A model generated the notes under the pieces. It was not told where the DNA came from, ran no database searches, and was given only the letters and a program-made list of their open reading frames with translations. The translations under genes and the position numbers were made by a program. 64,000 bases of DNA, from positions 2,656,001 through 2,720,000 of the forward strand of contig OY781964.1 in assembly GCA_963677485.1 (NCBI GenBank), given 5' to 3'. This document shows positions 11,598 to 59,698 of the stretch, piece by piece (position 1 is the first letter of the stretch; each line of letters begins with the position of its first letter). Origin of the DNA: Armatimonadota bacterium (GTDB taxonomy: Bacteria > Armatimonadota > HRBIN16).

Positions 11598-11689
11598 GCG
11601 GGACGCTGCTAGCCGCACATAGGACAGATCGGGCCGAACCGCAGCCCAGTAGGGGCAGGCACAGGGGCCTGCCCCTTGTATGCTTATAG

Positions 11690-11891
11690 ATGGAGGTCCT
11701 CAGACCTTAACCCAAAACTTGAGGACCATCCTCACACCGGGACGCTGGGGTGAAAGAGAAGGGGTAGATGCCGTCGCGCCCCTTGTAGCTTTGACTACGC
11801 GACGTAGAATGGCACCCTTCTCTGCAATGACCTAACACGAACAGTATCATGGGCTAAAGCCCGCATTTACAAGGATGTCAAGGTTGATTGC
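11690..11891 (+). ncRNA. Predicted bridge RNA of IS110 element A (ends approximate)
   Basis: Two 5' hairpins, target-binding loop with guides cgcgcccct (11775-83) and gacgtag (11801-07), donor-binding loop with acagtatca (11841-49) and tacaag (11868-73); covaries with the element B RNA. Confidence 0.85.
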
Positions 11892-12443
11892 TTCACCTGT
11901 GTCCCTAACTAGGAGCATACCGGACTATGCAAATCAATGGCAACTCGTACAGCTACTACGCTGGGATCGACATATCTAAAGACACTTTCGACGTGTCGGT
12001 CGTTGATCAAGACGGCACCCATCTGATCCACAAGCAGTTTGTGAACAACCAGAAAGGCTTCAAAGAGCTGGTGTCACTCACCAGGAAGCAAGGCTGGATG
12101 CCTGTGTTATTCGCAATGGAAGGCACTGGCGGATGTGAGCAAAAGCTGCTTGACTACCTGTATAAGCATAAGCAGGCAGTCTCACGGCAAGAACCCTGTC
12201 GAATACACTATCATCGCCTCTCACAAGGATCTCGGCAAAAGACAGACTATGTAGACAGCCTGATCATTGCTGACTACGCACTAAAGAACCGCCTGCGGCT
12301 CTATGTCGCTAATCGGGTTACACTATACCAGCCCATTCGGCATGTGTGAGCCACCCATGTTCGGCATGACTATACCACTCTAGCCGTGTTTCGATGCCCC
12401 TGACCGCCTAAATGATAGACACAGTTTTATCAGGAGGGCATAC

Positions 12444-14003
12444 ATGGAAAGGCTAAGAATGCAGATCATAGAAGAGATCATATTCCGACTGCGGCGTGGG
12501 CAGTCCCAACGAGCGATTTCTCGTGACACGGGCTGCGCTCGTAACACCGTCAGCCAATACGCACAGTGGGCTTCTCGACTTGGATACCTGGCTCCAGATT
12601 CAGATATGCCGAGTATGGAGGCATTTCGTGACACCTTACCGCAGCGCAAACGACGCAGTAATGTGTCTAGTGCTGAACCATACCGCGAAATCATCGAGAC
12701 CTATCTCCAGACTCACATAGAGGCAGTGACCATCCACAACAACCTCAAACGACTATACGGGTTTACCGGTAGCTACTCTTCGGTTATTCGCTTCATTAAC
12801 GGACTGACCCCCAAAGAGCAGTTGGCCATTATACGTCTAGAGACAGACCCAGGAAAACAGGCCCAGGTTGACTTCGGATTTGTGGGGCAAATGAAGGACC
12901 CCGCAACAGGCAAGATGCGTTCAACGTATGCCTTCTTGATGACGCTATCACACTCTCGACATCAATATGTGGAGTTTGTATTCAATCAAAGGATACCCAC
13001 ATGGGTGAACTGCCATATCAACGCCTTTGAATTCTTCGGAGGCGTTCCAGAGGAACTTGTGATAGACAATCTAAAGTCAGCGGTTCTCAAAGCAGATATA
13101 TACGACCCTGTCATCTCGGAGCCGTATCGGCAACTGGCCTTGCACTACGACTTCCTCATTCATCCGTGTAGAGTGAGAACCCCGGAGCATAAAGGAAAAG
13201 TGGAAAACGGGGTTCATTACGTGCAGCGAAACTTCATTGCAGGCCGGGAGTTCATGGATATCGACGAAGCGAACCTGCTTGTGAAGACCTGGATCACCCA
13301 AGAGGCAGGTCTGCGTAACCATGGAACCACACATAAACAGCCATTGGCGCAGTTCAATCAGGTAGAGAAGAGCACGCTTAAGTCATTACCAGACACGGAA
13401 TTTGATCTCATTGAAGTTCGTAGTGCGAAAGTCCATCGGGACTGTCATGTTACAGTGTATGGTTCTTACTATTCCGTGCCCTACAGCTACATAGGCAGCC
13501 AAATGGACGTGCATCTGCACGAACGAGTGGTGCAGATATATGATAACGACCATAAACTAGTTGGAACACATCAAAGAGCGACACAACAAGGGCAGCGCAT
13601 TACCCGCATGACTGATTACCCAACACATAAAGTGGCCTATATGGTTCTTTCAATCGAGAATTGCCTGGAATTAGGGCATGACATCGGCCCCAGTTGTGTT
13701 ACGGTGCTTAATGCTTTGCTGGCTGACAGGCCTGTAGACCGAAGACAATCCGTGAAGAGGATCGTCCGGCTAGTTCAAACGTACAGCAGTAGTCGCCTGG
13801 AAGCGGCCTGCGCACGCTCTCTCTATTACCAAGATGGTAGTTACCAACGCATTGCTAAGATACTGAGGGCCGGTACAGATCACGAGCCAATGGGAATAAC
13901 ATCTTCTCTTCCCCCTAAAAAAGACTACCTCTTCGCTCGTAGTGCCGACGAATTCATTTTGGTCAGTAATGCTGACACCAATATGGAGGTAGAAGCGTGT
14001 TAA
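12444..14003 (+). CDS. istA: IS21 transposase
   Basis: N-terminal HTH, ETDPGKQAQVDFG, IDNLKS, KGKVEN (DDE), YSVP. Confidence 0.95.
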   Translation: MERLRMQIIEEIIFRLRRGQSQRAISRDTGCARNTVSQYAQWASRLGYLAPDSDMPSMEAFRDTLPQRKRRSNVSSAEPYREIIETYLQTHIEAVTIHNNLKRLYGFTGSYSSVIRFINGLTPKEQLAIIRLETDPGKQAQVDFGFVGQMKDPATGKMRSTYAFLMTLSHSRHQYVEFVFNQRIPTWVNCHINAFEFFGGVPEELVIDNLKSAVLKADIYDPVISEPYRQLALHYDFLIHPCRVRTPEHKGKVENGVHYVQRNFIAGREFMDIDEANLLVKTWITQEAGLRNHGTTHKQPLAQFNQVEKSTLKSLPDTEFDLIEVRSAKVHRDCHVTVYGSYYSVPYSYIGSQMDVHLHERVVQIYDNDHKLVGTHQRATQQGQRITRMTDYPTHKVAYMVLSIENCLELGHDIGPSCVTVLNALLADRPVDRRQSVKRIVRLVQTYSSSRLEAACARSLYYQDGSYQRIAKILRAGTDHEPMGITSSLPPKKDYLFARSADEFILVSNADTNMEVEAC

Positions 14004-14764
14004 CTCACACACTGCTACCCAAGCTCAGGCAACTCAGATGGTCTGGCATGGTTGATAGCCTCGAAGAGAGAGCGGAGCTAGCCCGTGAGCAAAAGCTCTC
14101 ACCAACGGAGTTCCTTGCGTTATTAGTAGATGATGAGCTTGAGCGACGCAGCCAAACTAAACAGGTAAAGATGGAGAAGGCGGCCTGTTTCGAGAACACG
14201 AAACTGCTGTCCCACTTCGACTTCAACGCTGTACCTACCCTTGATCGTTCGCTGGTAAGGGAGATGGCGACCTGCCAGTTAATCGCTCAACATGCCAACT
14301 GGCTGGTGTGTGGTCCCACTGGTGTGGGCAAGACACATCTAGCCACCGCCATAGGTTATGAGGCCATTAAGCGAAGCTACAGTGTTTATAACAGTTCTGT
14401 CCACAAGTTGCAACAGGAGATGTTTGCGGCCAGGGCAGACGATGCTTATACGCGGTTGATTAAGAAATTGGTCAACGTTGACCTCCTGATACTCGACGAC
14501 TTTGGTCTTCGCCCCATCACAATTCAGGGAGCGGAAGACCTCTACGAGATCATCCACCAGAGATACGAGAAGGGCAGTATTGTATTGACATCTAATCGGG
14601 CTCCCTCCGAATGGCCGGAGATGTTTGGCGACTCTCTTCTCGCTTCAGCTGCTATGGACAGATTGACTCACCATGCCCGGGTGACTGTTGTCACCGGTGA
14701 GAGCTATCGCCAAAGGCAGCGCAGAGGGGAGGTAAGCAAGCCGGATAATGCATCCGTAGAGTGA
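13997..14764 (+). CDS. istB: IS21 AAA+ helper ATPase
   Basis: GPTGVGKTHLA Walker A, LLILDDFG Walker B, TSN, DRLTHH; overlaps the istA stop. Confidence 0.95.
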   Translation: MLTHTLLPKLRQLRWSGMVDSLEERAELAREQKLSPTEFLALLVDDELERRSQTKQVKMEKAACFENTKLLSHFDFNAVPTLDRSLVREMATCQLIAQHANWLVCGPTGVGKTHLATAIGYEAIKRSYSVYNSSVHKLQQEMFAARADDAYTRLIKKLVNVDLLILDDFGLRPITIQGAEDLYEIIHQRYEKGSIVLTSNRAPSEWPEMFGDSLLASAAMDRLTHHARVTVVTGESYRQRQRRGEVSKPDNASVE

Positions 14765-16340
14765 GATACCGACGCATCCAACACTTACATTGGGCAATGA
14801 ACACGAACTAGTCAAGTGGTATACATATGCCGAACATGGGTGGTAGTAATAAGGTGACTATTGACAGCTCTACATTCCTAAAGGCGAAAGCTATCGGGCG
14901 CTGCAGGAGATCGGTCGCACACGGCGCATGCTGGTCAGACACCGGAACTCCCTGCAGCAGAGGCACTCTCACGCGCAGAACCTGCATGCCAAAGCGGTTC
15001 TTCAACGCAGCATAGATCACTGCACAGAGGATATCGATCTTTTGAACTCCGCGGCTGCTGAGATTATCGCCAGCAATGACAGGCTAGCGGAAGATTATCG
15101 CCTCCTGAACAGTATTCCGGGTGTAGGTGATATCACATCCAACTACTTTCTAGGGCTCATCGGTGATATATCTTGCTTTGCGACGTCTGCGAAGATAATC
15201 CGATTTGTGGGTATGAACCCATGCCCGCACCAGTCAGGAACCAGCATCGATTCCGAAAGCAGCATATCCAAAATGGGCGATCCCTACATGCGCTCCTTGT
15301 TATACACCAGTGCCATGGCTGTATTACATATGGTGGATCACAATTCGAAAGCACTCCATCCCAGCATGTATCGGTTCGTGGCCAAAATGCGGGAGAGATT
15401 CGGCCCGAGTTCTAGCAGGAAGGTCGTATGCGCGGTGATGCGCAAGCTGCTGATCTTGATGTGGGCTGTGTTGACCAGGCGTAAGGTTTACGATCCGTGC
15501 TACGGACTAGAGCCGCAGGATGCTCCGGCCAACCAGACACCGCAATCCGACGACACTGGCCTTGTCCAGTCTCGTGCCGAAGCGGCCTCAGATTTTGCCG
15601 GCGAAGGCAATGATGCTGGGCAGGACAGTGGCGTTCCAGGATTGGGATGTCTGGATGGATAGCCACCGTGTGGTTCATCCTTGGCCCCAAGTGGTTGAGC
15701 AGCATTCCAGAGCCGGCGAGTCAGCGGTAGAAAGATATGATCACCACTAGCTAGCTGCTCTTGATCTAGCCGCTAAAATTAACATCATTAGAACGTTATC
15801 TTTAAAGCCTCAAAGATGCGGGGTGGGCGTTCATCACTACGGATGACGGGCAACCCTTTGCATAACGGTGCATCTTCGCGTGGGACCGGCTTGTGCTATG
15901 AGCTTGGGTATACCTAAGGTCTATTTGCCACATTGCATAATATAAACGTTGTCCGCAGAACGTTATGGGCATAAATCTGGTATTTCGGACAAATACCAGA
16001 TTTCACCCTCGGAGGCCTTGACAAATAACACAGTATCTACGTCATGCGCCATGTCCTATCGCCCCCCCCAAATCTGCGCCATCTGCGTAATCTGTGGATT
16101 GAATCCCCCTCCAACAAGAATTGCATGGGGACCTGCCTGAGAAGCAATGGTGAAACTCCCGCCACAGAACGTAGCTCCGCTATAATAGAACTGACTAAAA
16201 GCCCAAACAAGCGCAAACAGCAAGCATAGCAACAACTTAGCCTTGAATAAGTCGCGGTGCGATGTGCCGCTGTATTATCAACTGCACCGCGACGGTAATG
16301 ACCAATGACCTTTACAGGAGCTGCGTAGCAACAGGAGATT

Positions 16341-52172: not shown

Positions 52173-54347
52173 TTAGTAACCCTTCAGCAGGGGCTTGATT
52201 TCGTCAGCGATCAACTGTTTGTAGTGCTGAGCCTCGTTCTGCTCGAACTGGCCCCCAAGCTTCTGAACACCATCGGCTGCCCCAAGATAACCCAGCCACA
52301 GCGTGTCACGCTGCAGCCATACGGCCTCGCGTGCCATCATAGTGGGCGTGACCAGCAGACTGAGTATCAGCACGCTGCCCGCCCATAGGCTGGCCAGCCG
52401 CCGGTTGAGGGCACCGAAATACCGGCTGTAAAGTGACATGGCGTACAGCCCAATGATCACGCTGCCTGCCAGCATCACCCATCCCGCGATGAACTGAGCC
52501 ATCGACACGATGTTTGCCATCATGTCGGTGTTTGGGTCATTCGAGAAGATGAGCCAGAAGCCAATCAACACGCAGCCATACCCGATGATTGCGTATTTCA
52601 GCTCAAGGCGTGCATCTGGCGTGCCGATGCCCAGATCCCGGCAGCGTTTGCGTGTTTGCTGCCACTCCAACACCATTGGGGTCAGCAACAGCAGGGCACC
52701 AGGTATGACCCACCAGAAGGAAGCAGACTTAAGCAGGCTGGTCTCTGTGAGCACCACAACAAGAAGGGCGGGAGCCAGCACGAAAGTGAGCAGCCGGATA
52801 CGCATCATCTTCCAGTCCGGCAGCAGGAATAACACCCGTTCACAACGGTAGGCCCCTACCACCATCCAGATGAAGGCCAGTATACTGCTCAAAATTAACA
52901 ACAAGGCGAAGACGGATGTCCACACCATCACGAGGGTTTCACCAGCCAGCTGGCTCTGTACCCGCTTGAGCGGGGTAAGCTGCGCGACACTGACTCCGGG
53001 GTAATATACATCGAGATCCTTGAACTCGAAGGGCAGAATGTCGATGCGCTTAGCATCTGCCTCGGCTTGTTTTTCTGTCGGCTCGAGTTTGACAGATAAC
53101 ACGGTGCGGCCATGCGCACTACTCGCTTGCTGCTTCGCCACTTGTTTTTGAAAGCGGCTGGGATACGCTGGCCTAATAAGCCGATCACTGTCGTTGAGAA
53201 AGCTGTTGCAGGCGTAGTATGATAACGTTTGTCTAGGTCTATAGTTGGAGTTCTCCGATTTCATTACATTTAGCTTCAAGGATTGTTGCACTACCCGCTC
53301 GGCAGTGGCATACTGGCCTTGTTCAGCCAGGTAGCGCACTAAGGTGCCGATGTTTTGATCGTTCATTGACCAAGAACTGTCAATCTGGCGAGCAAAAAAC
53401 CAGCGTGACAGATATTGCTCGTAGTAACGAGGTTGAGGCAGACGCTGCAGCATCCTTAGGTTAAACTCATCGGTGTAGTCGTCAAAGCGAGGCTTCTTTG
53501 AGGCTTCTTCCAGCAGTATCAAACAGCGTTCCAGTCCAGCCAGGCTGCTTATTTTGGTGCCAGGTTCAATTCGAGCAACCAAAGGTAGAAACGCCTTACT
53601 AAATTGCACCTTTAGCATGAGCATAGGGTAGAGTGCGTTGTCTGGGTCCTTCTGCATACCGATCGCAATGAATTTCAGGTAGTCTGCCGGGGTGATGGAG
53701 CCTTGTGCATAATAAGTCGAGTTGCCCCCTGGGGTGTTGGATATTATATTCCGTTTTGGGTTGAATACCACTTCGGAACCCACCAGGAAGTAAGCCAGCA
53801 TTTTGAGGGCTTCAGGCTCATGACTGTGCTTCTGCCAGTACTCTTTGAATCGCTCGGTGCGGAATGCATTCTTGTGGTTCTCTGGTATATCGATCTTACC
53901 GACGGCGTAGAAGTCGGCATGAGGAGGCGCAAACACCGAATAGGCAGGGAGGCGGAACTCGTCGGTCGTGACGGTCTGCGGATCGATCTGTACCTCGCGC
54001 TGGGCCTCTTGAATACCACCCAACCGCAGAAAACCTAAAGCCAGGCCTGCCAGCAGCATCACCGGCACCAGCACCCAACTGATCATGATGCGGGCCAGGC
54101 TGCGCAGAGTCATCCTGCGGCTGTTGGCGGTCAGTAGTTGGTCAGCCAGCTCTGCGGGTGGTCCAAACTGCGCCACGGTCTGCTCTTGGGCTTCCTCCGG
54201 GGACAGCTTCAGTTCAGAGCTTAGCTCCGCGGCACTCTCCTCCAGGTGGCTCATCAGCTCCTGACGCACATCCAAAAGCAGCTCATGGTCAGCTTTCAAG
54301 CCTTCGGTGGCTTGGTCAACCAGCTTCTGGAAGGGGCTTGTATCCAT
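52173..54347 (-). CDS. Membrane protein with N-terminal HAAS/permease-prefix helical domain (copy 1)
   Basis: RQELMSHLEE...FGPPAELA, TM, large loop, multi-TM C-terminus; coupled to padR. Confidence 0.75.
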   Translation of the reverse strand: MDTSPFQKLVDQATEGLKADHELLLDVRQELMSHLEESAAELSSELKLSPEEAQEQTVAQFGPPAELADQLLTANSRRMTLRSLARIMISWVLVPVMLLAGLALGFLRLGGIQEAQREVQIDPQTVTTDEFRLPAYSVFAPPHADFYAVGKIDIPENHKNAFRTERFKEYWQKHSHEPEALKMLAYFLVGSEVVFNPKRNIISNTPGGNSTYYAQGSITPADYLKFIAIGMQKDPDNALYPMLMLKVQFSKAFLPLVARIEPGTKISSLAGLERCLILLEEASKKPRFDDYTDEFNLRMLQRLPQPRYYEQYLSRWFFARQIDSSWSMNDQNIGTLVRYLAEQGQYATAERVVQQSLKLNVMKSENSNYRPRQTLSYYACNSFLNDSDRLIRPAYPSRFQKQVAKQQASSAHGRTVLSVKLEPTEKQAEADAKRIDILPFEFKDLDVYYPGVSVAQLTPLKRVQSQLAGETLVMVWTSVFALLLILSSILAFIWMVVGAYRCERVLFLLPDWKMMRIRLLTFVLAPALLVVVLTETSLLKSASFWWVIPGALLLLTPMVLEWQQTRKRCRDLGIGTPDARLELKYAIIGYGCVLIGFWLIFSNDPNTDMMANIVSMAQFIAGWVMLAGSVIIGLYAMSLYSRYFGALNRRLASLWAGSVLILSLLVTPTMMAREAVWLQRDTLWLGYLGAADGVQKLGGQFEQNEAQHYKQLIADEIKPLLKGY

Positions 54348-54348
54348 C

Positions 54349-54687
54349 TTAGGCCTCCTGCAGCAGTAACACTGAGTTCACGTTTGTGGTATAGTTCTTC
54401 CAATCCTTCAAGCGTGTCTGCAGGCTCTCCAGGCCCGCCGGCGTGATGCTGTAGTACCGACGCGGCCTGTTGTAACCGTGCACCTCCACCCATTCGCACT
54501 GCAGTTGCCCGCACGACGCCAGCTTGTGCAGCACAGGGTATAGACTCCCCTCCTTCCACTTAAACTCGCCTTCGGTGCGTTCATTCACGAGTTTGATGAT
54601 CTGGTAGCCGTACATCTTTTCTTCTGATAGCATCTTGAGCACCATCATCTCGATGGCACTCGCCAGATAGTCAGCATGGTTTGCCAT
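54349..54687 (-). CDS. PadR family regulator (copy 1)
   Basis: MYGYQI, EGSLYPVLHKL, RRYYSIT..G. Confidence 0.93.
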   Translation of the reverse strand: MANHADYLASAIEMMVLKMLSEEKMYGYQIIKLVNERTEGEFKWKEGSLYPVLHKLASCGQLQCEWVEVHGYNRPRRYYSITPAGLESLQTRLKDWKNYTTNVNSVLLLQEA

Positions 54688-55209: not shown

Positions 55210-55557
55210 TGGCCATGACCGGATCGGTGATGGCCAGCACCATCGATCCGACGGATGGGACGAATCGGACAGATGGTCTGGCGTAGATACTGTGGCTTTT
55301 GTCAAGTCCCCAGGGGCAAATCTGGGGATTTGGACCTGAATATCAGACACTGGCTCTAGACCACGTAGAATAACGTTAATGTGATGTTTGTGGCATATAG
55401 ACCAAACCTGGATCCGCGACAGAAACAGGCTCAGATGGCATCAGTTGGTCCGTAGCACCTCACATGACGCTCGGAGTCGCGAACGGACGTGCGACATCTT
55501 CGTGGCTTCGAAAGATATCGTTATGCTTCGATGCGTGCTATCGGCAGACTGCCGCAG

Positions 55558-56850
55558 CTAGGATACTGGTGTCAGAACCCTCGGTTTGTTGCCCACCCGA
55601 CTGCGCGATGGCCGGTTTCGGGATGCGGGCCGACCACCGCCGGCAGGAGTGGGCTCATTGGTGGGATTTCCATCCACGCATCCCCGTCTTGGAACGCTCA
55701 CGTCCAGCCCAGGATCATTGCCTACACCGGCTATATCATGGGCCGCTCCGGCACGATCCTGGACATGTCCGTTCGCGTCGGTCAGCGGTTGCTGGTTGGC
55801 CGCATTTGAAGCTTGTTCGATGCCGAAGTTTGGATCATATGGCTGACGGCTGATTAATACCGACCACATGAGCACCAGCTGCTTGCGCATGATTGCGCAC
55901 CGGACAACTCGCTTGGACTTCGGTTTCTTATTGGGATTCTTTACCAAATTCGGATGCTGCAGTTCCTTCACGAAGTCGTGCATGCTCTGGCCAAGCTTTT
56001 TCGACTTACCGTTGACCATCTTCACCACAGTGCTCGATCCACAGTAGAGTAATGTCCGCATATATCGGTCACCCATCTTGGATATGGAGCCGTCGTATGT
56101 CTTGCAGCTTCCTGACCGTTGCGGGCAGGGGTTCATTCCGAAATAGCGCGCGACCGCTTTCGATGTTTCAAATCGTTTAGCATCACCGATTTTCGCAAGG
56201 AAATAGCTTGCTGTGACGTCGCCGATACCCGGAATGCTCTTCAGCAGAGCCATATCTTCGGTCATCTGCGGTGAACTCATCACAAGCTCTTTGATCTGAA
56301 CATCAAGCTTTTTGATGCCCATGTCATGAAAAGCGATCATCTCGTCCAGCACTGTGCTCCGCGTAAGCCGACAGCTTTGGCGCTGGGCGATCGCCTGTCT
56401 GTGTTGCACCAGCATACGGCGGTCATTGGTGTAACCAATAAGCGCATCATAGCATGCTAGACGAGGGACATAGAGTGAGACATTGTGACTTTTCACATAG
56501 TCAGCGATTAGCACGCTGTCAGAGCAGTCCGTCTTTTGTTCCCAGCCTTTGGCTTTGCGGTGATAGAGAACCCGTTTTGGCTCCAGTTGGACAGCATCGT
56601 GCTGGTGCTCGTAGAGGTAATCAAGCAGCGGTCGGCTGTAAGGCCCGGTGGCTTCAGCCGCATACAAGGCGGGAGTTCGGGTAAGCTTCTTCACCCATGA
56701 CAACAACTCCTTGTATCCGGCCTTGTTGTTCTTGAACTCCTTATGGTCTATCGGCTTGTGCGATGAACCTAATACAGACGCGTCAAACGTCAATTTCGAG
56801 ATGTCGATCCCGACATAATGGATGTAGATTTTGTCTTCAACTTCGTGCAT
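55558..56850 (-). CDS. IS110 DEDD bridge recombinase
   Basis: GIDISK, AEATG, KTDCSD, SIPGIG, PQRSGS (catalytic Ser); start MHEVED after RBS ggag. Confidence 0.93.
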   Translation of the reverse strand: MHEVEDKIYIHYVGIDISKLTFDASVLGSSHKPIDHKEFKNNKAGYKELLSWVKKLTRTPALYAAEATGPYSRPLLDYLYEHQHDAVQLEPKRVLYHRKAKGWEQKTDCSDSVLIADYVKSHNVSLYVPRLACYDALIGYTNDRRMLVQHRQAIAQRQSCRLTRSTVLDEMIAFHDMGIKKLDVQIKELVMSSPQMTEDMALLKSIPGIGDVTASYFLAKIGDAKRFETSKAVARYFGMNPCPQRSGSCKTYDGSISKMGDRYMRTLLYCGSSTVVKMVNGKSKKLGQSMHDFVKELQHPNLVKNPNKKPKSKRVVRCAIMRKQLVLMWSVLISRQPYDPNFGIEQASNAANQQPLTDANGHVQDRAGAAHDIAGVGNDPGLDVSVPRRGCVDGNPTNEPTPAGGGRPASRNRPSRSRVGNKPRVLTPVS

Positions 56851-56882
56851 GTGGTAATCTCCAGTTGGTAGTGATTGATGGT

Positions 56883-57082
56883 GCAATCAACCAAATCAGC
56901 CTAGCGAACACGGGGTTTTCTCCCAAGATACTGTTCGATATGGGTTGATTGGGAGAAGGATGCCTATCTACGTCACGGTGTTTTCCACCAGGGGCGGTTC
57001 CGGCATCCAATCCTTCTCCTTCACCCCCAGCTAAGGGGTGAGATTAGCTCCCCGACTGCTTTTGGTGTCCGGGGAGCTCACC
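56883..57082 (-). ncRNA. Predicted bridge RNA of IS110 element B (ends approximate)
   Basis: Target guides accgcccct (56998-90) and gacgtag (56974-68); donor guides acagtatct (56934-26) and cgctag (56906-01); same fold as the element A RNA. Confidence 0.87.
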
Positions 57083-57189
57083 ATATATAGCGTACTAGGG
57101 GCGGGGTCACCCCGAATCAGGGCGCGGAGACCGCGCCCCACACATCGTCCTGCGGGGCGCGGTCTCCGCGCCCTGGGTGATGAAGCCCT

Positions 57190-59358
57190 TTACGGGTTGA
57201 TGGAACCCGTCGCCGATGGGTCGCCTGTCAGCTTACCCATGCTGTCATGGATAAGTTGATTGGTGTGCTGGGTAAGGTTCTGCTGGAACCGCCCCTCCAA
57301 CTGTTTCACTCCACCCGGTGCGCCAAGATGCCCCAGCATGAGGGTGTCGCGTTGAAGCCATGTGGCCTCACGTGAAAGCATCCAGGGAGTAATCAGCAGG
57401 CTGAGTATCAACACACTGCCTGCCCATAGACTGGCCAGACGGCGGTTGAGCGCGCTGTAGTACCGGACGTAAAGCGACATGCCGTACAGCCCGCCCATCA
57501 CTCCGCCAATCATCAAACTCCATCCGATCACGAACCTCACCAGCGCCATGCTAGAACCGATGGCCTCATAATCCTGGTTGATGGAGCGGTACAGCACGTA
57601 GCCTATCACAATACTGCCAACACAGATGATCTTTGCGATCAGCTCACGAACGGCCTTTGGAGTCGCGATACCCAACTCATGGCACCGTCTGCGGGTTAGC
57701 GTCCACTCGTAAAGGGCGGGGATTCCGATCAGCAGCACGGCCGGGATGGCCCACATGACAGAGGCCTGTTTGATCCAGCCAAACTCCGCCATCACGGCGA
57801 CAAGGGCTCCCGGTATGAATACGCCGAATATCAGCGTGTTCCGAAGCCGGATCCAGTCTGGCAGCAGGATCAACACCCGTTGACCACGGAAGAGACCGAC
57901 GATGCTCCATATGATCGCCAGCAGTGTGCTCAGCACGAGCAGCAGCGCAAAGGCGGTCTGCCAGATCATGATCAGTGTCTCCGAAGCCAGCACACTCTGA
58001 AGCTTTTGCAGTGGTTTCAATTGGTCGAGGTTCAGTCCCCGGAAGTAGGCTGGATTGCGAATAATGGAAGCCGGAATGATATCCACTTTTTTGGCAGTTT
58101 CCTGCACAAGCCGTTCCGTTGGGTTCAACCCATCAGCGCGGTCGGTGGAGGCACCCGCTTTCGATTTCAAGATCTGGTCTATCTGCTGCGAGTAGCTGGT
58201 TGGTTTGATCTTGTTGACATAGTTGGTGTAGCCTTTCAGCAGTCCGATGCTGGTCGAATAGATCACGCTCTTGCGTTTTTCGATATTGGAACTGTCGGCC
58301 AGCAGCAGGTTGATTTTCATCGCTTGCTGAGTCAGCCGCTCGCAACCAGCCGCATCTCCTTTAGTTTGGAGATATTGCAGCACGCGCCAGGTGTAGCTGT
58401 CGAGACTTGATGCTGTCGTATTGATCTGGTCCACAACGGCCTCACGTGAGAGATACTGCTCGTAATATCTGGGTTTCGGCAGACGTTGGAGCATCTTGAT
58501 CCGAAATTCGTCGGTGTAGTCGCTGTAGCGAGGTTTGGACGCCGCAAGAGCCATCATTTTGAGGCCTGCATCCAGATCGGGCTGGCTGGAAAACTCGTAA
58601 CTTTGGATCAAACCAGCCTTTGGCTTAAACGCCTTCTGCAGGTAGACCTGCGCCATCAAGACTGGGTAGAGCGCGTTATCGGGATCTTTCTCCATGCCGA
58701 TGTTGACGAACTTGAGGTAGTCTGCCGGTGCGAGGCTCTCGTTGTCTTGAGGCGCCGCGGGGCCAGGTGTCGGCTCAAACGCCACGTGTGAGCCGACCAG
58801 GAAATAAGCCAGCATATGCAATGCGTCCGGATCATTCTGATGCTGCTGCCAGTATGTCTTGAACCGGTCTGTCTGATATCTAAATCGCTGGTTCTCCGGT
58901 GCGTCGATATTCAGCACCGTTTGCAAGTCTTTTGCTGGAGGAGCAAATACGGAGTAAGCAGGTAGAATCAAACCAGGTTCGATCGGCGCGGAGCGTATCT
59001 TGGCATCATTTTGCATCACGCGGATCGCGCCAAGCCGCGACACCCCCAAAGCCAGCCCAGCCAATAACATGACGGGTATCAGCAGCCAGCAGATCAGTAT
59101 TCGTGCGACGTGACGCCTGGACATCCGGTGCCTGTTGGCCTCAAATAACTGATCGGCCACCTCTACGGGTGAGCCGAAATGTGCTTCGGCCTGTGTCACG
59201 ACCTCGTCGGGAGTGACCGCCGGGTCAGCAGCCAACTCTCCAGCGCTCTCTTCGAGGTGACCGAGTAGCTCTTGCTGCACATCAAGCAGCAACTCATGGT
59301 CGCCTTTAAGTCCTTCAGTGGCCTGGTCCACCAGCTTCTGGAAGGGGTTGTTGCTCAT
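57190..59358 (-). CDS. Membrane protein with N-terminal HAAS/permease-prefix domain (copy 2)
   Basis: Homologous to 52173-54347 (PFQKLVDQATEGLK, KDPDNALYP, ALNRRLASLWAGS). Confidence 0.75.
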   Translation of the reverse strand: MSNNPFQKLVDQATEGLKGDHELLLDVQQELLGHLEESAGELAADPAVTPDEVVTQAEAHFGSPVEVADQLFEANRHRMSRRHVARILICWLLIPVMLLAGLALGVSRLGAIRVMQNDAKIRSAPIEPGLILPAYSVFAPPAKDLQTVLNIDAPENQRFRYQTDRFKTYWQQHQNDPDALHMLAYFLVGSHVAFEPTPGPAAPQDNESLAPADYLKFVNIGMEKDPDNALYPVLMAQVYLQKAFKPKAGLIQSYEFSSQPDLDAGLKMMALAASKPRYSDYTDEFRIKMLQRLPKPRYYEQYLSREAVVDQINTTASSLDSYTWRVLQYLQTKGDAAGCERLTQQAMKINLLLADSSNIEKRKSVIYSTSIGLLKGYTNYVNKIKPTSYSQQIDQILKSKAGASTDRADGLNPTERLVQETAKKVDIIPASIIRNPAYFRGLNLDQLKPLQKLQSVLASETLIMIWQTAFALLLVLSTLLAIIWSIVGLFRGQRVLILLPDWIRLRNTLIFGVFIPGALVAVMAEFGWIKQASVMWAIPAVLLIGIPALYEWTLTRRRCHELGIATPKAVRELIAKIICVGSIVIGYVLYRSINQDYEAIGSSMALVRFVIGWSLMIGGVMGGLYGMSLYVRYYSALNRRLASLWAGSVLILSLLITPWMLSREATWLQRDTLMLGHLGAPGGVKQLEGRFQQNLTQHTNQLIHDSMGKLTGDPSATGSINP

Positions 59359-59359
59359 T

Positions 59360-59698
59360 CTATGCCCCCTGTAACAGCATGACTGCATTCACGTTGGCGG
59401 AGTAGCTCTTCCAATCCTTCAGGCGGGTTTGAAGGCTCTCAAGTCCTGCTGTCGTGATACTGTAGTATCGTCGCGGTCTGTTATATCCGGGCACTTCCAC
59501 CCATTCACATTGGAGTTGACCGCAGGACGCCAGCTTGTGTAAAACCGGATAGAGGCTTCCCTCTTTCCACTTGAACTCACCATCGGTCCGTTCATTCACG
59601 AGCTTGATGATTTGATAGCCATACATCTTTTCTTCCGATAGCATCTTGAGCACCATCATCTCGATGGCACTCGCGAGATAGTCAGCATGGTTAGCCAT
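59360..59698 (-). CDS. PadR family regulator (copy 2)
   Basis: 103/112 residues identical to copy 1. Confidence 0.93.
   Translation of the reverse strand: MANHADYLASAIEMMVLKMLSEEKMYGYQIIKLVNERTDGEFKWKEGSLYPVLHKLASCGQLQCEWVEVPGYNRPRRYYSITTAGLESLQTRLKDWKSYSANVNAVMLLQGA

What the first reader, a model, noticed from the sequence alone, without database searches (positions are those of the whole stretch)
11690..11891. The two bridge RNAs covary: same fold, changed stems, donor guide tracks the donor
Seen: hairpin 1 ggtcctca/tgaggacc (A) vs agctcccc/ggggagct (B); target-loop inner stem gtag/ctac vs ggtg/cacc; donor-loop inner stem gggct/agccc vs ggg/ccc. Outer stems gagaagg..tgcc/ggca.ccttctc and caat..acc/ggttgattgc are shared. 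The right donor guide changes (tacaag vs cgctag) in step with the right donor DNA (CT-tgta vs CT-agta). Inference: a natural pair showing guide reprogramming, possibly with orthogonal donors and a shared target pool.
Basis: partly seen in the sequence, partly recalled or inferred. Interest (0 to 1): 0.75.

Follow-up and report, generated by a model that had tools for sequence, protein, structure and literature searches.

The report
Two co-resident IS110 bridge RNAs
The window holds two related but distinct IS110-family jumping genes, each carrying its own roughly 200-base guide ("bridge") RNA whose stems and DNA-reading loops have changed in step with each other and with the DNA they recognise, which makes them a clean natural example of an already known mechanism.

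Summary
Confirmed. Window 11691-11894 (+) and 57083-56881 (-) are the bridge RNAs of two IS110-family elements, A and B. Their recombinases are 46% identical, and B's recombinase matches the solved IS621 recombinase.

- **Copies:** the genome holds 2 copies of A. The window copy's recombinase gene is split by an IS21-family insertion. B has 12 copies.
- **Fold:** both RNAs have the same layout of two 5' hairpins, a target-binding loop and a donor-binding loop.
- **Covariation:** A versus B shows 7 clean compensatory pair changes. In a family alignment of 79 distinct sequences, 90.5% of cells pair against 56.8% after shuffling.
- **Guides:** real element ends come from 14 insertions. LTG matches the left target, RTG matches CT-AC(G), and LDG matches ACAGTAT-CT.
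- **Donor guide:** read in the IS621 structural register, each RDG pairs with all 9 bases of its own CT+RD. Both RD differences between A and B (d10, d14) are compensated in the RNA.

"Shared target pool" is not supported: the LTGs differ, and A and B sit in different hairpin repeats. "Orthogonal donors" is untested and at best partial, since LD is identical and the RDs differ at 2 of 7 positions.

Verdict: new members of a known kind.

Side observation, unexplained: hairpin-CT sites without an IS that carry exactly the first 6-7 bases of the element's left end.

The parts
11652..11676 (+). Element A: target hairpin (GGGGCAGGC / GCCTGCCCC). Its 3' arm is the left target and ends in the core CT at 11675-11676.
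   Evidence: Sequence. The junction was set by comparing the two A copies.
11677..11683 (+). Element A: right donor (RD) TGTATGC, the first bases of the element. Bases 11679-11684 (TATGCT) would be the -10 of a promoter completed only in the circular form.
   Evidence: The promoter reading is inferred from TTGACA-17 nt-TATGCT across the joined ends.
11691..11894 (+). Bridge RNA A.
- Hairpin 1: 11695-11727.
- Hairpin 2: 11732-11753.
- Target-binding loop: 11755-11823, with LTG 11775-11783, RTG 11801-11807 and handshake AA 11808-11809.
- Donor-binding loop: 11824-11893, with LDG 11841-11848, RDG 11863-11873 and handshake GA 11874-11875.
   Evidence: Covariance-model hits of 91.7 bits (R1) and 165.7 bits (R2). 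Fold. Coordinates.
11927..12303 (+). Element A recombinase, N-terminal part (DEDD/RuvC-like domain), cut off by the IS21-family insertion.
   Evidence: Pfam PF01548, E 1.8e-21. Breakpoint from BLAST against the intact copy.
12304..14866 (+). IS21-family element (istA 12444-14003, istB 13997-14764) inserted in A's recombinase gene. It is flanked by the 6-bp duplication GCTCTA (12298-12303 and 14867-14872).
   Evidence: Pfam rve + Mu-transpos_C_2 and IstB_IS21. Ends.
14867..15662 (+). Element A recombinase, C-terminal part (Transposase_20 domain).
   Evidence: Pfam PF02371, E 2.4e-21. Colinear with the intact copy L002:1738-2901.
16018..16038 (+). Element A right end: -35 box TTGACA (16018-16023), left donor ACAGTAT (16030-16036) and core CT (16037-16038). 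The right target ACGTCA follows.
57097..57105 (-). Element B (window copy): left target plus core, CCCGCCC-CT. It matches 8 of the 9 LTG bases.
57090..57096 (-). Element B: right donor (RD) AGTACGC, the first bases of the element.
   Evidence: Invariant in 12 of 12 copies, while the flanks differ.
56881..57083 (-). Bridge RNA B.
- Hairpin 1: 57078-57046.
- Hairpin 2: 57041-57021.
- Target-binding loop: 57019-56952, with LTG 57000-56990, RTG 56974-56968 and handshake AU 56967-56966.
- Donor-binding loop: 56951-56884, with LDG 56934-56926, RDG 56911-56901 and handshake GC 56900-56899.
   Evidence: Fold. Models. All 12 genome copies score the same 266.8 bits. Coordinates.
55558..56850 (-). Element B recombinase, 430 aa, intact.
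   Evidence: Pfam PF01548 + PF02371. IS621 transposase 8wt6, E 2.5e-28.
55285..55305 (-). Element B right end: -35 box TTGACA (55305-55300), left donor ACAGTAT (55293-55287) and core CT (55286-55285). The right target ACGCCAG follows.
   Evidence: A single 1820-base unitig spans 55284-57103 at about 11-13 times flank depth in runs X1 and X3.

Best explanation
The two RNAs are the bridge RNAs of two distinct IS621-like members of the IS110 group. Each is encoded in the left end of its element, just upstream of a DEDD/serine recombinase.

**How it works (by analogy with IS621)**
- The element circularises.
- Joining the right and left ends puts a -35 box (TTGACA, in the right end) 17 nt from a -10 box (TATGCT in A, TACGCT in B, in the left end). 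This would drive the RNA.
- The first internal loop of the RNA reads the chromosomal target. [quoted passage not shown] - The second internal loop reads the joined element ends. LDG reads ACAGTAT-CT. RDG reads CT plus 7 bases of the left end, with two RNA bases flipped out.
- The recombinase exchanges strands at CT.

**How A and B differ**
- Helix sequences differ through compensatory changes.
- The target guide differs, so each element sits in its own family of GC-rich hairpin repeats.
- Two RDG bases differ, matching the two differences in their left ends.

**Shown here:** the anatomy, the element ends, the guide-DNA matches and the covariation.

**Inferred:** transcription, circle formation and catalysis.

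The window copy of A cannot make its own recombinase. It could only be served by the intact copy elsewhere in the genome.
For: **Protein**
- Both Pfam domains of IS110 transposases are present.
- B matches the IS621 and ISCro4 transposase structures (E 2.5e-28 and 5e-26).
- The residues aligned with IS621's D/E/D/D and Ser (B: D16, E66, D108, D111, S246) are invariant between A and B.

**Element ends**
- Ends come from 12 B copies and 2 A copies.
- Left junction: hairpin-GCCC-CT-RD. Right junction: ACAGTAT-CT-AC.

**Guides**
- B's LTG GAACCGCCCCU equals the left flank in 6 of 12 copies, and 4 more differ by one base.
- A's LTG CGCGCCCCU equals the flank of the intact copy.
- The RTG of both is the reverse complement of CT-ACGTC.
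- LDG equals ACAGTATC(T).
- RDG in the IS621 register: A has 9 of 9 Watson-Crick pairs. B has 7 Watson-Crick pairs plus G.T at d12 and U.G at d15. IS621 itself has the same G.T at d12.
- The first handshake base fits the IS621 rule in both loops: A opposite donor T7, and G opposite target C7.

**Target choice**
- 6 of 7 perfect-match B sites are occupied, against 4 of 23 sites with one mismatch. Fisher p = 0.002.

**Relatives**
- A third element in a same-genus genome has LTG GGGUCAUCCCU. Of its 9 copies, 7 were examined, and 6 of those 7 lie after GTCATCC-CT.

**Structure**
- A versus B shows 7 compensatory pair changes: 3 in hairpin 1, 2 in the target-loop outer stem and 2 in its inner stem.
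- In the alignment of 79 distinct RNAs, 90.5% of cells are paired, against 56.8% after shuffling and 37-46% after sliding the partner.
- The covariation score is 0.653 against 0.189, with 0 of 500 shuffles reaching it.
- 81 of 82 hits lie on the recombinase strand, those with a full flank just upstream of the gene.
- A sequence-only MAFFT + RNAalifold run on 69 of these RNAs recovered both target-loop stems and the donor-loop inner stem.
Against: - There is no direct evidence of the RNA or of circles. Only assembled contigs were available, and they showed no right-end/left-end junction. The assembly holds no such junction either.
- The large alignment was fitted to the model's structure, which favours pairing. 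The sequence-only control did not recover hairpins 1 and 2 or the donor-loop outer stem.
- Nearly all A-versus-B changes represent one divergence event. The other six rows of the 8-row alignment (7 distinct) are close to A.
- B's RDG has two wobbles.
- The window copy of B and one other B copy sit at imperfect targets.
- No Rfam family matches either RNA.
Confidence: 0.9

Rival explanations
1. The conserved structure is only a cis-acting leader of the recombinase mRNA, or a DNA-level protein-binding left end. Under this reading it is not a guide, and the complementarity to the flanks is a by-product of inserting into palindromic repeats.
For: - The RNA sits directly upstream of the start codon.
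- The targets are palindromic hairpins, so some self-similarity is expected.
- No transcript was seen.
Against: - Four separate guide segments match four separate DNA segments in the strand sense known for IS621.
- Three related elements with different LTGs sit at three matching left targets.
- Perfect-match B sites are preferentially occupied, p = 0.002.
- RD and LD are element DNA, not palindrome DNA.
Confidence: 0.03
2. A and B are not insulated from each other. With an identical LD and near-identical RD and scaffold, each recombinase-RNA complex also acts on the other element's ends. They would then be a cross-mobilising pair rather than an orthogonal one.
For: - LD is identical over at least 8 bases, and the -35 box is also shared.
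- B's RDG on A's donor has one mismatch (d10) and only one wobble more than on its own donor.
- The outer stems and the loop-flanking bases of both binding loops are shared.
Against: - Mismatches between RD and RDG next to the core were poorly tolerated in the IS621 donor screen (PMC11208160, passage seen).
- A's RDG on B's donor has 2 mismatches in 7.
- The recombinases are only 46% identical, and hairpin 1 differs.
- No hybrid element (A end with B end) was found in the genome.
Confidence: 0.35
3. The window copy of A is a dead relic. Its RNA is unchanged only because the IS21 insertion is recent, and the A lineage is no longer mobile in this genome.
For: - Its recombinase gene is split by an IS21-family element with an intact 6-bp duplication.
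- There are only 2 A copies against 12 B copies.
- The window copy sits at a target with 2 LTG mismatches.
Against: - An intact A copy with a 387-aa frame exists at genome 1296590-1298392, 99.5-99.7% identical.
- Six empty sites match A's LTG plus AC.
- Action of the recombinase in trans is stated for ISPpu10 in a section heading of preprint 10.64898/2026.03.19.712850 (outline seen).
Confidence: 0.3

Closest known systems
IS621 (E. coli) bridge RNA and recombinase (Durrant 2024, PMC11208160; Hiraizumi 2024, PMC11208158)
   Same: - Recombinase domains and aligned catalytic residues.
- The RNA lies in the left end, with a target-binding loop followed by a donor-binding loop.
- CT core.
- LTG and LDG read the bottom strand; RTG and RDG read the top strand.
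- RDG is discontiguous, with two flipped bases.
- G.T wobble at d12 (in B).
- Handshake G opposite target C7, with donor T7.
- -35 box in the right end.
- The donor bases d6-d14 named in the text of PMC11208158 (A, T, C, T, T, G, T, A, T) equal those of element A.
   Different: - The recombinase match to IS621 is distant (phmmer E 2.5e-28; about 30% identity by my reading of the alignment). The recombinases here are also about 60-100 aa longer at the C-terminus.
- There are two 5' hairpins instead of one.
- RDG pairing appears to run on to d16.
- The right ends are about 270-380 bases long.
- The targets are this genus's own hairpin repeats.
- B's donor differs at d10 and d14.
ISPpu10 (Pseudomonas putida), an IS110 element that targets a repeat with a GC-rich stem-loop 5' of the site (preprint 10.64898/2026.03.19.712850; abstract and outline seen)
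   Same: All insertions lie just 3' of a GC-rich hairpin in a multicopy intergenic repeat. The left target is the 3' arm of the hairpin.
   Different: A different host and different repeat. Whether the hairpin itself is a specificity determinant here was not tested.
IS1111 group / seekRNA elements
   Same: The same recombinase superfamily and the same two-loop guide logic.
   Different: In those elements the RNA lies in the right end, downstream of the gene (PMC11208160, Extended Data Fig. 10 legend). Here it lies upstream, so these are IS110-group elements.

Membership tests
IS110 family (IS110 group) bridge-RNA element | Recombinase with an N-terminal DEDD (RuvC-like) domain and a C-terminal Tnp (Transposase_20) domain carrying the catalytic Ser | tested here: met
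   - PF01548 and PF02371 in B and in the two halves of A.
- IS621 structure hit, E 2.5e-28.
- D16, E66, D108, D111 and S246 of B are aligned to the IS621 positions and are invariant in A. The 2-residue offset between chain numbering and paper numbering is my inference.
IS110 family (IS110 group) bridge-RNA element | Structured non-coding RNA encoded in the left end, upstream of the recombinase gene | tested here: met
   - 81 of 82 model hits lie on the gene's strand. Those with a full 1200-base flank lie about 40-250 bases before the gene start.
- Folds with z -3.4 and -4.5.
IS110 family (IS110 group) bridge-RNA element | Two internal loops whose 5' sides equal the left target or left donor plus core, and whose 3' sides are complementary to the core plus right target or right donor | tested here: met
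   Guide strings compared with junctions from 14 insertions and with the related element C. The pairing rule is taken from passages seen.
IS110 family (IS110 group) bridge-RNA element | Core dinucleotide (CT) present at both junctions, with no longer target duplication | tested here: met
   CT at the left and right junction in 12 of 12 B copies and 2 of 2 A copies. Twenty empty sites read ...CGCCC-CT-AC.
IS110 family (IS110 group) bridge-RNA element | Conserved secondary structure supported by covariation | tested here: met
   79 distinct sequences, 48 of 49 pairs with changes on both sides, score 0.653 against 0.189. Partly confirmed without the model.
IS110 family (IS110 group) bridge-RNA element | Promoter completed by joining the right and left ends in a circular intermediate | tested here: inconclusive
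   TTGACA-17 nt-TATGCT (A) and TTGACA-17 nt-TACGCT (B) would form across the joined ends. This is read from the sequence only. No circle junction appears in the assembly or in the contigs.
IS110 family (IS110 group) bridge-RNA element | The RNA is transcribed, and RNA-guided recombination occurs | not testable with these tools
   Only assembled contigs were served. Twelve near-identical B copies (99.1-100%) argue for recent mobility.
Rfam RNA family | A match at the gathering score to a curated model | tested here: not met
   No family at the gathering score in the window apart from two tRNAs. Only chance-level hits, E 1.3-7.7, over both RNAs.

The most novel reading that the evidence does not exclude
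In this genus, bridge recombinases may leave a recurrent product that the canonical cycle does not predict. These are cognate hairpin-CT sites without an element that carry exactly the first 6-7 bases of the element's left end, followed by unrelated DNA.

- The sequences are AGTACGC for B and TGTATGC for A and C.
- That length equals the stretch that RDG pairs with (d10-d16).
- The inserted bases copy the donor DNA, not the RNA.

They would then be scars of aborted or half-match strand exchange, and a natural record of off-pathway bridge recombination.
Probability: 0.2. Interest if true: 0.65.

Novelty: new member of a known kind. Interest (0 to 1): 0.3.

Why it matters
The pair adds no new mechanism.

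What it does offer is a compact natural data set. Three sister elements (A, B and C in the sister genome) share the same scaffold and have different target guides. Two donor-guide bases are compensated. There are 23 mapped insertions, and the list of empty sites is known.

This is useful for calibrating how strict natural bridge RNAs are. It could also serve as a starting pair for testing whether two bridge systems can work side by side without cross-talk.

Tried and rejected
**Searches that found nothing or little**
- Rfam found nothing for either RNA.
- The single-sequence model R1, run over 151 genomes (G000 and 150 relatives), found the RNA only in G000 and one same-genus genome.
- R1 was too insensitive for distant loci: 6 hits in 80 metagenome loci. 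I therefore built R2 from 13 hits.

**Alignment problem**
- RNAalifold on the two-sequence MAFFT alignment mis-registered hairpins 1 and 2. I read those helices from the single folds instead.

**Sequencing runs**
- Only contigs were served. There was no right-end/left-end joint and no information on RNA ends.
- Two metatranscriptome runs hold a 90-95% relative covering the RNA region and stopping at the same hairpin. This does not show transcription.

**Family-wide test of RDG against RD**
- Subfamilies use different registers. Only 26 of 79 rows could be parsed.
- Self versus non-self pairing was 4.39 versus 2.77 of 7. I use only the near subfamily.
- One search stopped with a script error and was redone.

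**IS-less left-junction sites**
- A miniature-element explanation found no left-donor-like end within 6 kb.
- There is no IS sequence beyond the 7 bases.
- Comparison with the sister genome failed because the flanks are not syntenic or are repeats.
- A Thiomicrorhabdus relative showed none: 9 of 9 matches are IS copies.

**Tools and files not available**
- Supplementary files of the papers were closed. The ortholog lists and models of PMC11208160 may already contain these elements.
- Complex prediction, structure prediction and the large protein searches were not used, because the family assignment did not need them.

Full report
**What is there**

The finding's coordinates (11690-11891, + strand) lie just upstream of an IS110-type recombinase gene. 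That gene is split by an IS21-family element.
- Its N-terminal part (11927-12303) carries Pfam DEDD_Tnp_IS110.
- Its C-terminal part (14867-15662) carries Transposase_20.
- istA and istB lie between them.

The second RNA lies on the minus strand at 57083-56881, upstream of an intact 430-aa recombinase gene (56850-55558) that has both domains.
- B's protein matches the solved IS621 and ISCro4 transposases (E 2.5e-28 and 5e-26).
- The intact A protein and B are 46% identical.
- The residues aligned with IS621's catalytic D/E/D/D and Ser are invariant between A and B.

**Copies and true ends**

The window's genome is one 5.22-Mb contig. It holds 2 copies of A and 12 of B.
- The second A copy (genome 1296590-1298392) is uninterrupted, so the IS21-family insertion can be placed at 12304-14866. 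It is flanked by a 6-bp duplication, GCTCTA.
- Comparing flanks fixes the ends.
  - Left junction: hairpin...GCCC-CT followed by TGTATGC (A) or AGTACGC (B).
  - Right junction: ...TTGACA-N6-ACAGTAT-CT followed by AC(G) and then unrelated DNA.
- In isolate-like runs, the B element is a single 1820-base unitig at about 11-13 times flank depth, which fits 12 copies.

**Fold and covariation**

Each RNA folds alone into two 5' hairpins and two long stem-loops with large internal loops.

A versus B, helix by helix:
- Hairpin 1 has three substitutions on the 5' strand, each matched on the 3' strand: G-C to C-G, U-A to C-G, A-U to G-C.
- The target-loop outer stem has two such changes: A-U to G-C and G-C to A-U.
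- The target-loop inner stem has two such changes: U-A to G-C and A-U to U-A.
- The UGCC/GGCA stem and the donor-loop stems are unchanged.
- One search counts 17 pairs changed on both sides. That figure includes 5 in the donor-loop outer stem that come from a one-column register shift, and it counts hairpin 1 in a different register. All of these changes reflect essentially one divergence, B versus the A clade.

For a larger test I fetched 79 loci from genomes and 80 from metagenomes with the two proteins. I built a model from B alone and rebuilt it from 13 hits. I then searched 100 sources.
- There were 82 hits. 81 of 82 lie on the gene's strand, those with a full flank just upstream of the gene.
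- On the 79 distinct rows, 90.5% of cells pair. The figure is 56.8% after shuffling and 37-46% with the partner slid.
- 48 of 49 pairs change on both sides.
- The covariation score is 0.653 against 0.189, and 0 of 500 shuffles reach it.
- This alignment is fitted to the model. As a check, a sequence-only MAFFT alignment of the 69 distinct RNAs of at least 160 nt, folded with RNAalifold, recovered the target-loop outer, middle and inner stems and the donor-loop inner stem. It did not recover the 5' hairpins or the donor-loop outer stem.

**Guides**

The pairing rules come from passages of PMC11208160 and PMC11208158.

| Guide | A | B | DNA it matches |
|---|---|---|---|
| LTG | CGCGCCCCU | GAACCGCCCCU | A: the flank of the intact copy. 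B: the flank in 6 of 12 copies, with 3 GAAT, 1 GAAA and 2 less similar |
| RTG | GACGUAG | GACGUAG | Complement of CT-ACGTC. Flanks keep AC in 11 of 12 B copies |
| LDG | ACAGUAUC | ACAGUAUCU | ACAGTAT-CT |
| RDG | GCAU[UU]ACAAG | GUGU[UC]GCUAG | A: CT-TGTATGC, 9 of 9 Watson-Crick. B: CT-AGTACGC, 7 Watson-Crick plus G.T (d12) and U.G (d15) |

- The RDG is read as in the IS621 structure, with two bases flipped out after the base opposite d12. IS621 itself has the G.T at d12.
- The two RD differences, d10 T/A and d14 T/C, face A to U and A to G in the RNA.
- A more distant relative (Thiomicrorhabdus type) has A at d11 opposite U.
- The first handshake base after RTG is A, opposite donor T7. The first after RDG is G, opposite target C7. 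Both follow the IS621 rule.
- A sister element C, in a same-genus genome (9 copies), has an A-like scaffold but LTG GGGUCAUCCCU. Of the 7 copies examined, 6 lie after GTCATCC-CT.
- Two metagenome variants have further LTGs of their own.

**Target use**

B's target is the 3' arm of a palindromic repeat, GTAGGGGCGATTCGCGAATCGCCCCTAC.
- Twenty empty sites read GAA[C/T/A]CGCCCCTAC, and only one of them has the perfect C.
- So 6 of 7 perfect sites are occupied, against 4 of 23 one-mismatch sites. The odds ratio is 28.5 and Fisher p = 0.002.
- A's cognate sites are a different repeat, GGGCGCGGAGACCGCGCCCCTAC, with 6 empty sites.
- The two elements therefore share only the proximal GCCC-CT-AC(G). They do not share a target pool.

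**Comparison with what is known**

This is the IS621 scheme in all tested respects. Element A's donor bases d6-d14 equal those named in the text of PMC11208158 for IS621.

Differences from IS621:
- a second 5' hairpin;
- RDG pairing that seems to reach d16;
- longer recombinase C-termini and longer right ends.

Hairpin-adjacent targeting is described for ISPpu10 (preprint abstract).

Searches for 'orthogonal' and 'footprint' together with IS110 and bridge RNA listed 19 and 4 papers. I read none of them in full for natural co-resident pairs, so I make no claim that such pairs are not already in print.

**Not shown**

Transcription, circles and activity are not shown. Contigs gave no joint, and the assembly holds no right-end/left-end junction.

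**Side observation**

Sites without an element nevertheless read hairpin-GCCC-CT plus exactly 6-7 bases of RD.
- In this genome, GCCCCT-N-GTACG occurs 11 times outside elements at spacer 1, against 0-2 times at other spacers. A-type TGTATGC occurs twice.
- The sister genome has 6 such sites beside its 9 elements. The reversed-pattern control gives 0 and 1.
- Three of the four B-type sites first found have a perfect 9-base LTG match.
- The bases equal the donor DNA, not the complement of B's RDG with its wobbles.
- Part of this may be repeats by descent.
- A distant relative shows none.
- Two 2026 preprints describe one-sided 'half-match' events, but neither passage I saw describes this product.

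I leave this observation unexplained.

Noticed in passing
Genome (outside the window) 1990835, 2010704, 2382966(-), 2851076(-), 3495658, 1083741(-) and others; loci L205, L207-L210, L216 in the sister genome: These sites have no element but read hairpin-GCCC-CT plus exactly the first 6-7 bases of an element's left end (AGTACGC or TGTATGC), followed by unrelated DNA.

- They are enriched at that exact spacing.
- The length equals the RDG-paired stretch.
- The origin is unknown. Candidates are a scar of aborted or half-match recombination, or repeats by descent.
   Followed up: partly
window 12304-14866: An IS21-family element (istA, istB) sits inside the recombinase gene of element A, with the 6-bp duplication GCTCTA. 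The element starts TGTC... and ends ...GACA.
   Followed up: yes
Genome-wide; in the window e.g. 57105-57160 (-) and 11652-11676 (+): The genome is rich in GC-rich palindromic repeats.
- 76 matches to GGGCG[AGT]TTC[GT]CGAA[CTA]CGCCC.
- 6 matches to GGGCGCGGAGACCGCGCCC.
- About 79 sites reading GCCCCT-ACGAC[CA/CG/AG/TA], whose nature is unknown.

B has nearly exhausted its perfect-match sites.
   Followed up: partly
window 55558-55850 (-) and 15480-15662 (+); right ends 55285-55557 (-) and 15663-16038 (+): Both recombinases carry a C-terminal tail that is conserved between A and B (ANQ.P..D..G.VQ.RA.AA.D.AG.GND...GC.DG) and lies beyond the part that aligns with IS621.

Both right ends are long (about 270-380 bases) and contain conserved blocks, e.g. 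GGTCTAT.TGCCACA...AACGTT. No function is assigned.
   Followed up: no
window 56731-57104, coded runs X15 and X16: Two biofilm metatranscriptome runs hold contigs 90-95% like B's RNA region and gene start. The contigs end at 57104 and continue into the same TTCGCGAACCGCCC hairpin.

The relative differs from B in LTG-distal, RTG (C to U) and loop positions. This shows presence, not transcription.
   Followed up: partly
window 52173-54687 (-) and 57190-59388 (-): Element B lies between two paralogous genes for large membrane proteins of about 730 aa with the same N-terminal motif. The downstream one is preceded by a small gene that looks PadR-like. The PadR name is recalled, not tested.
   Followed up: no
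L194 (genome 2010104-2011304) against G001: The two flanks of one IS-less site map to places 1.9 Mb apart in the sister genome, so this repeat-rich spacer is a synteny break point.
   Followed up: partly
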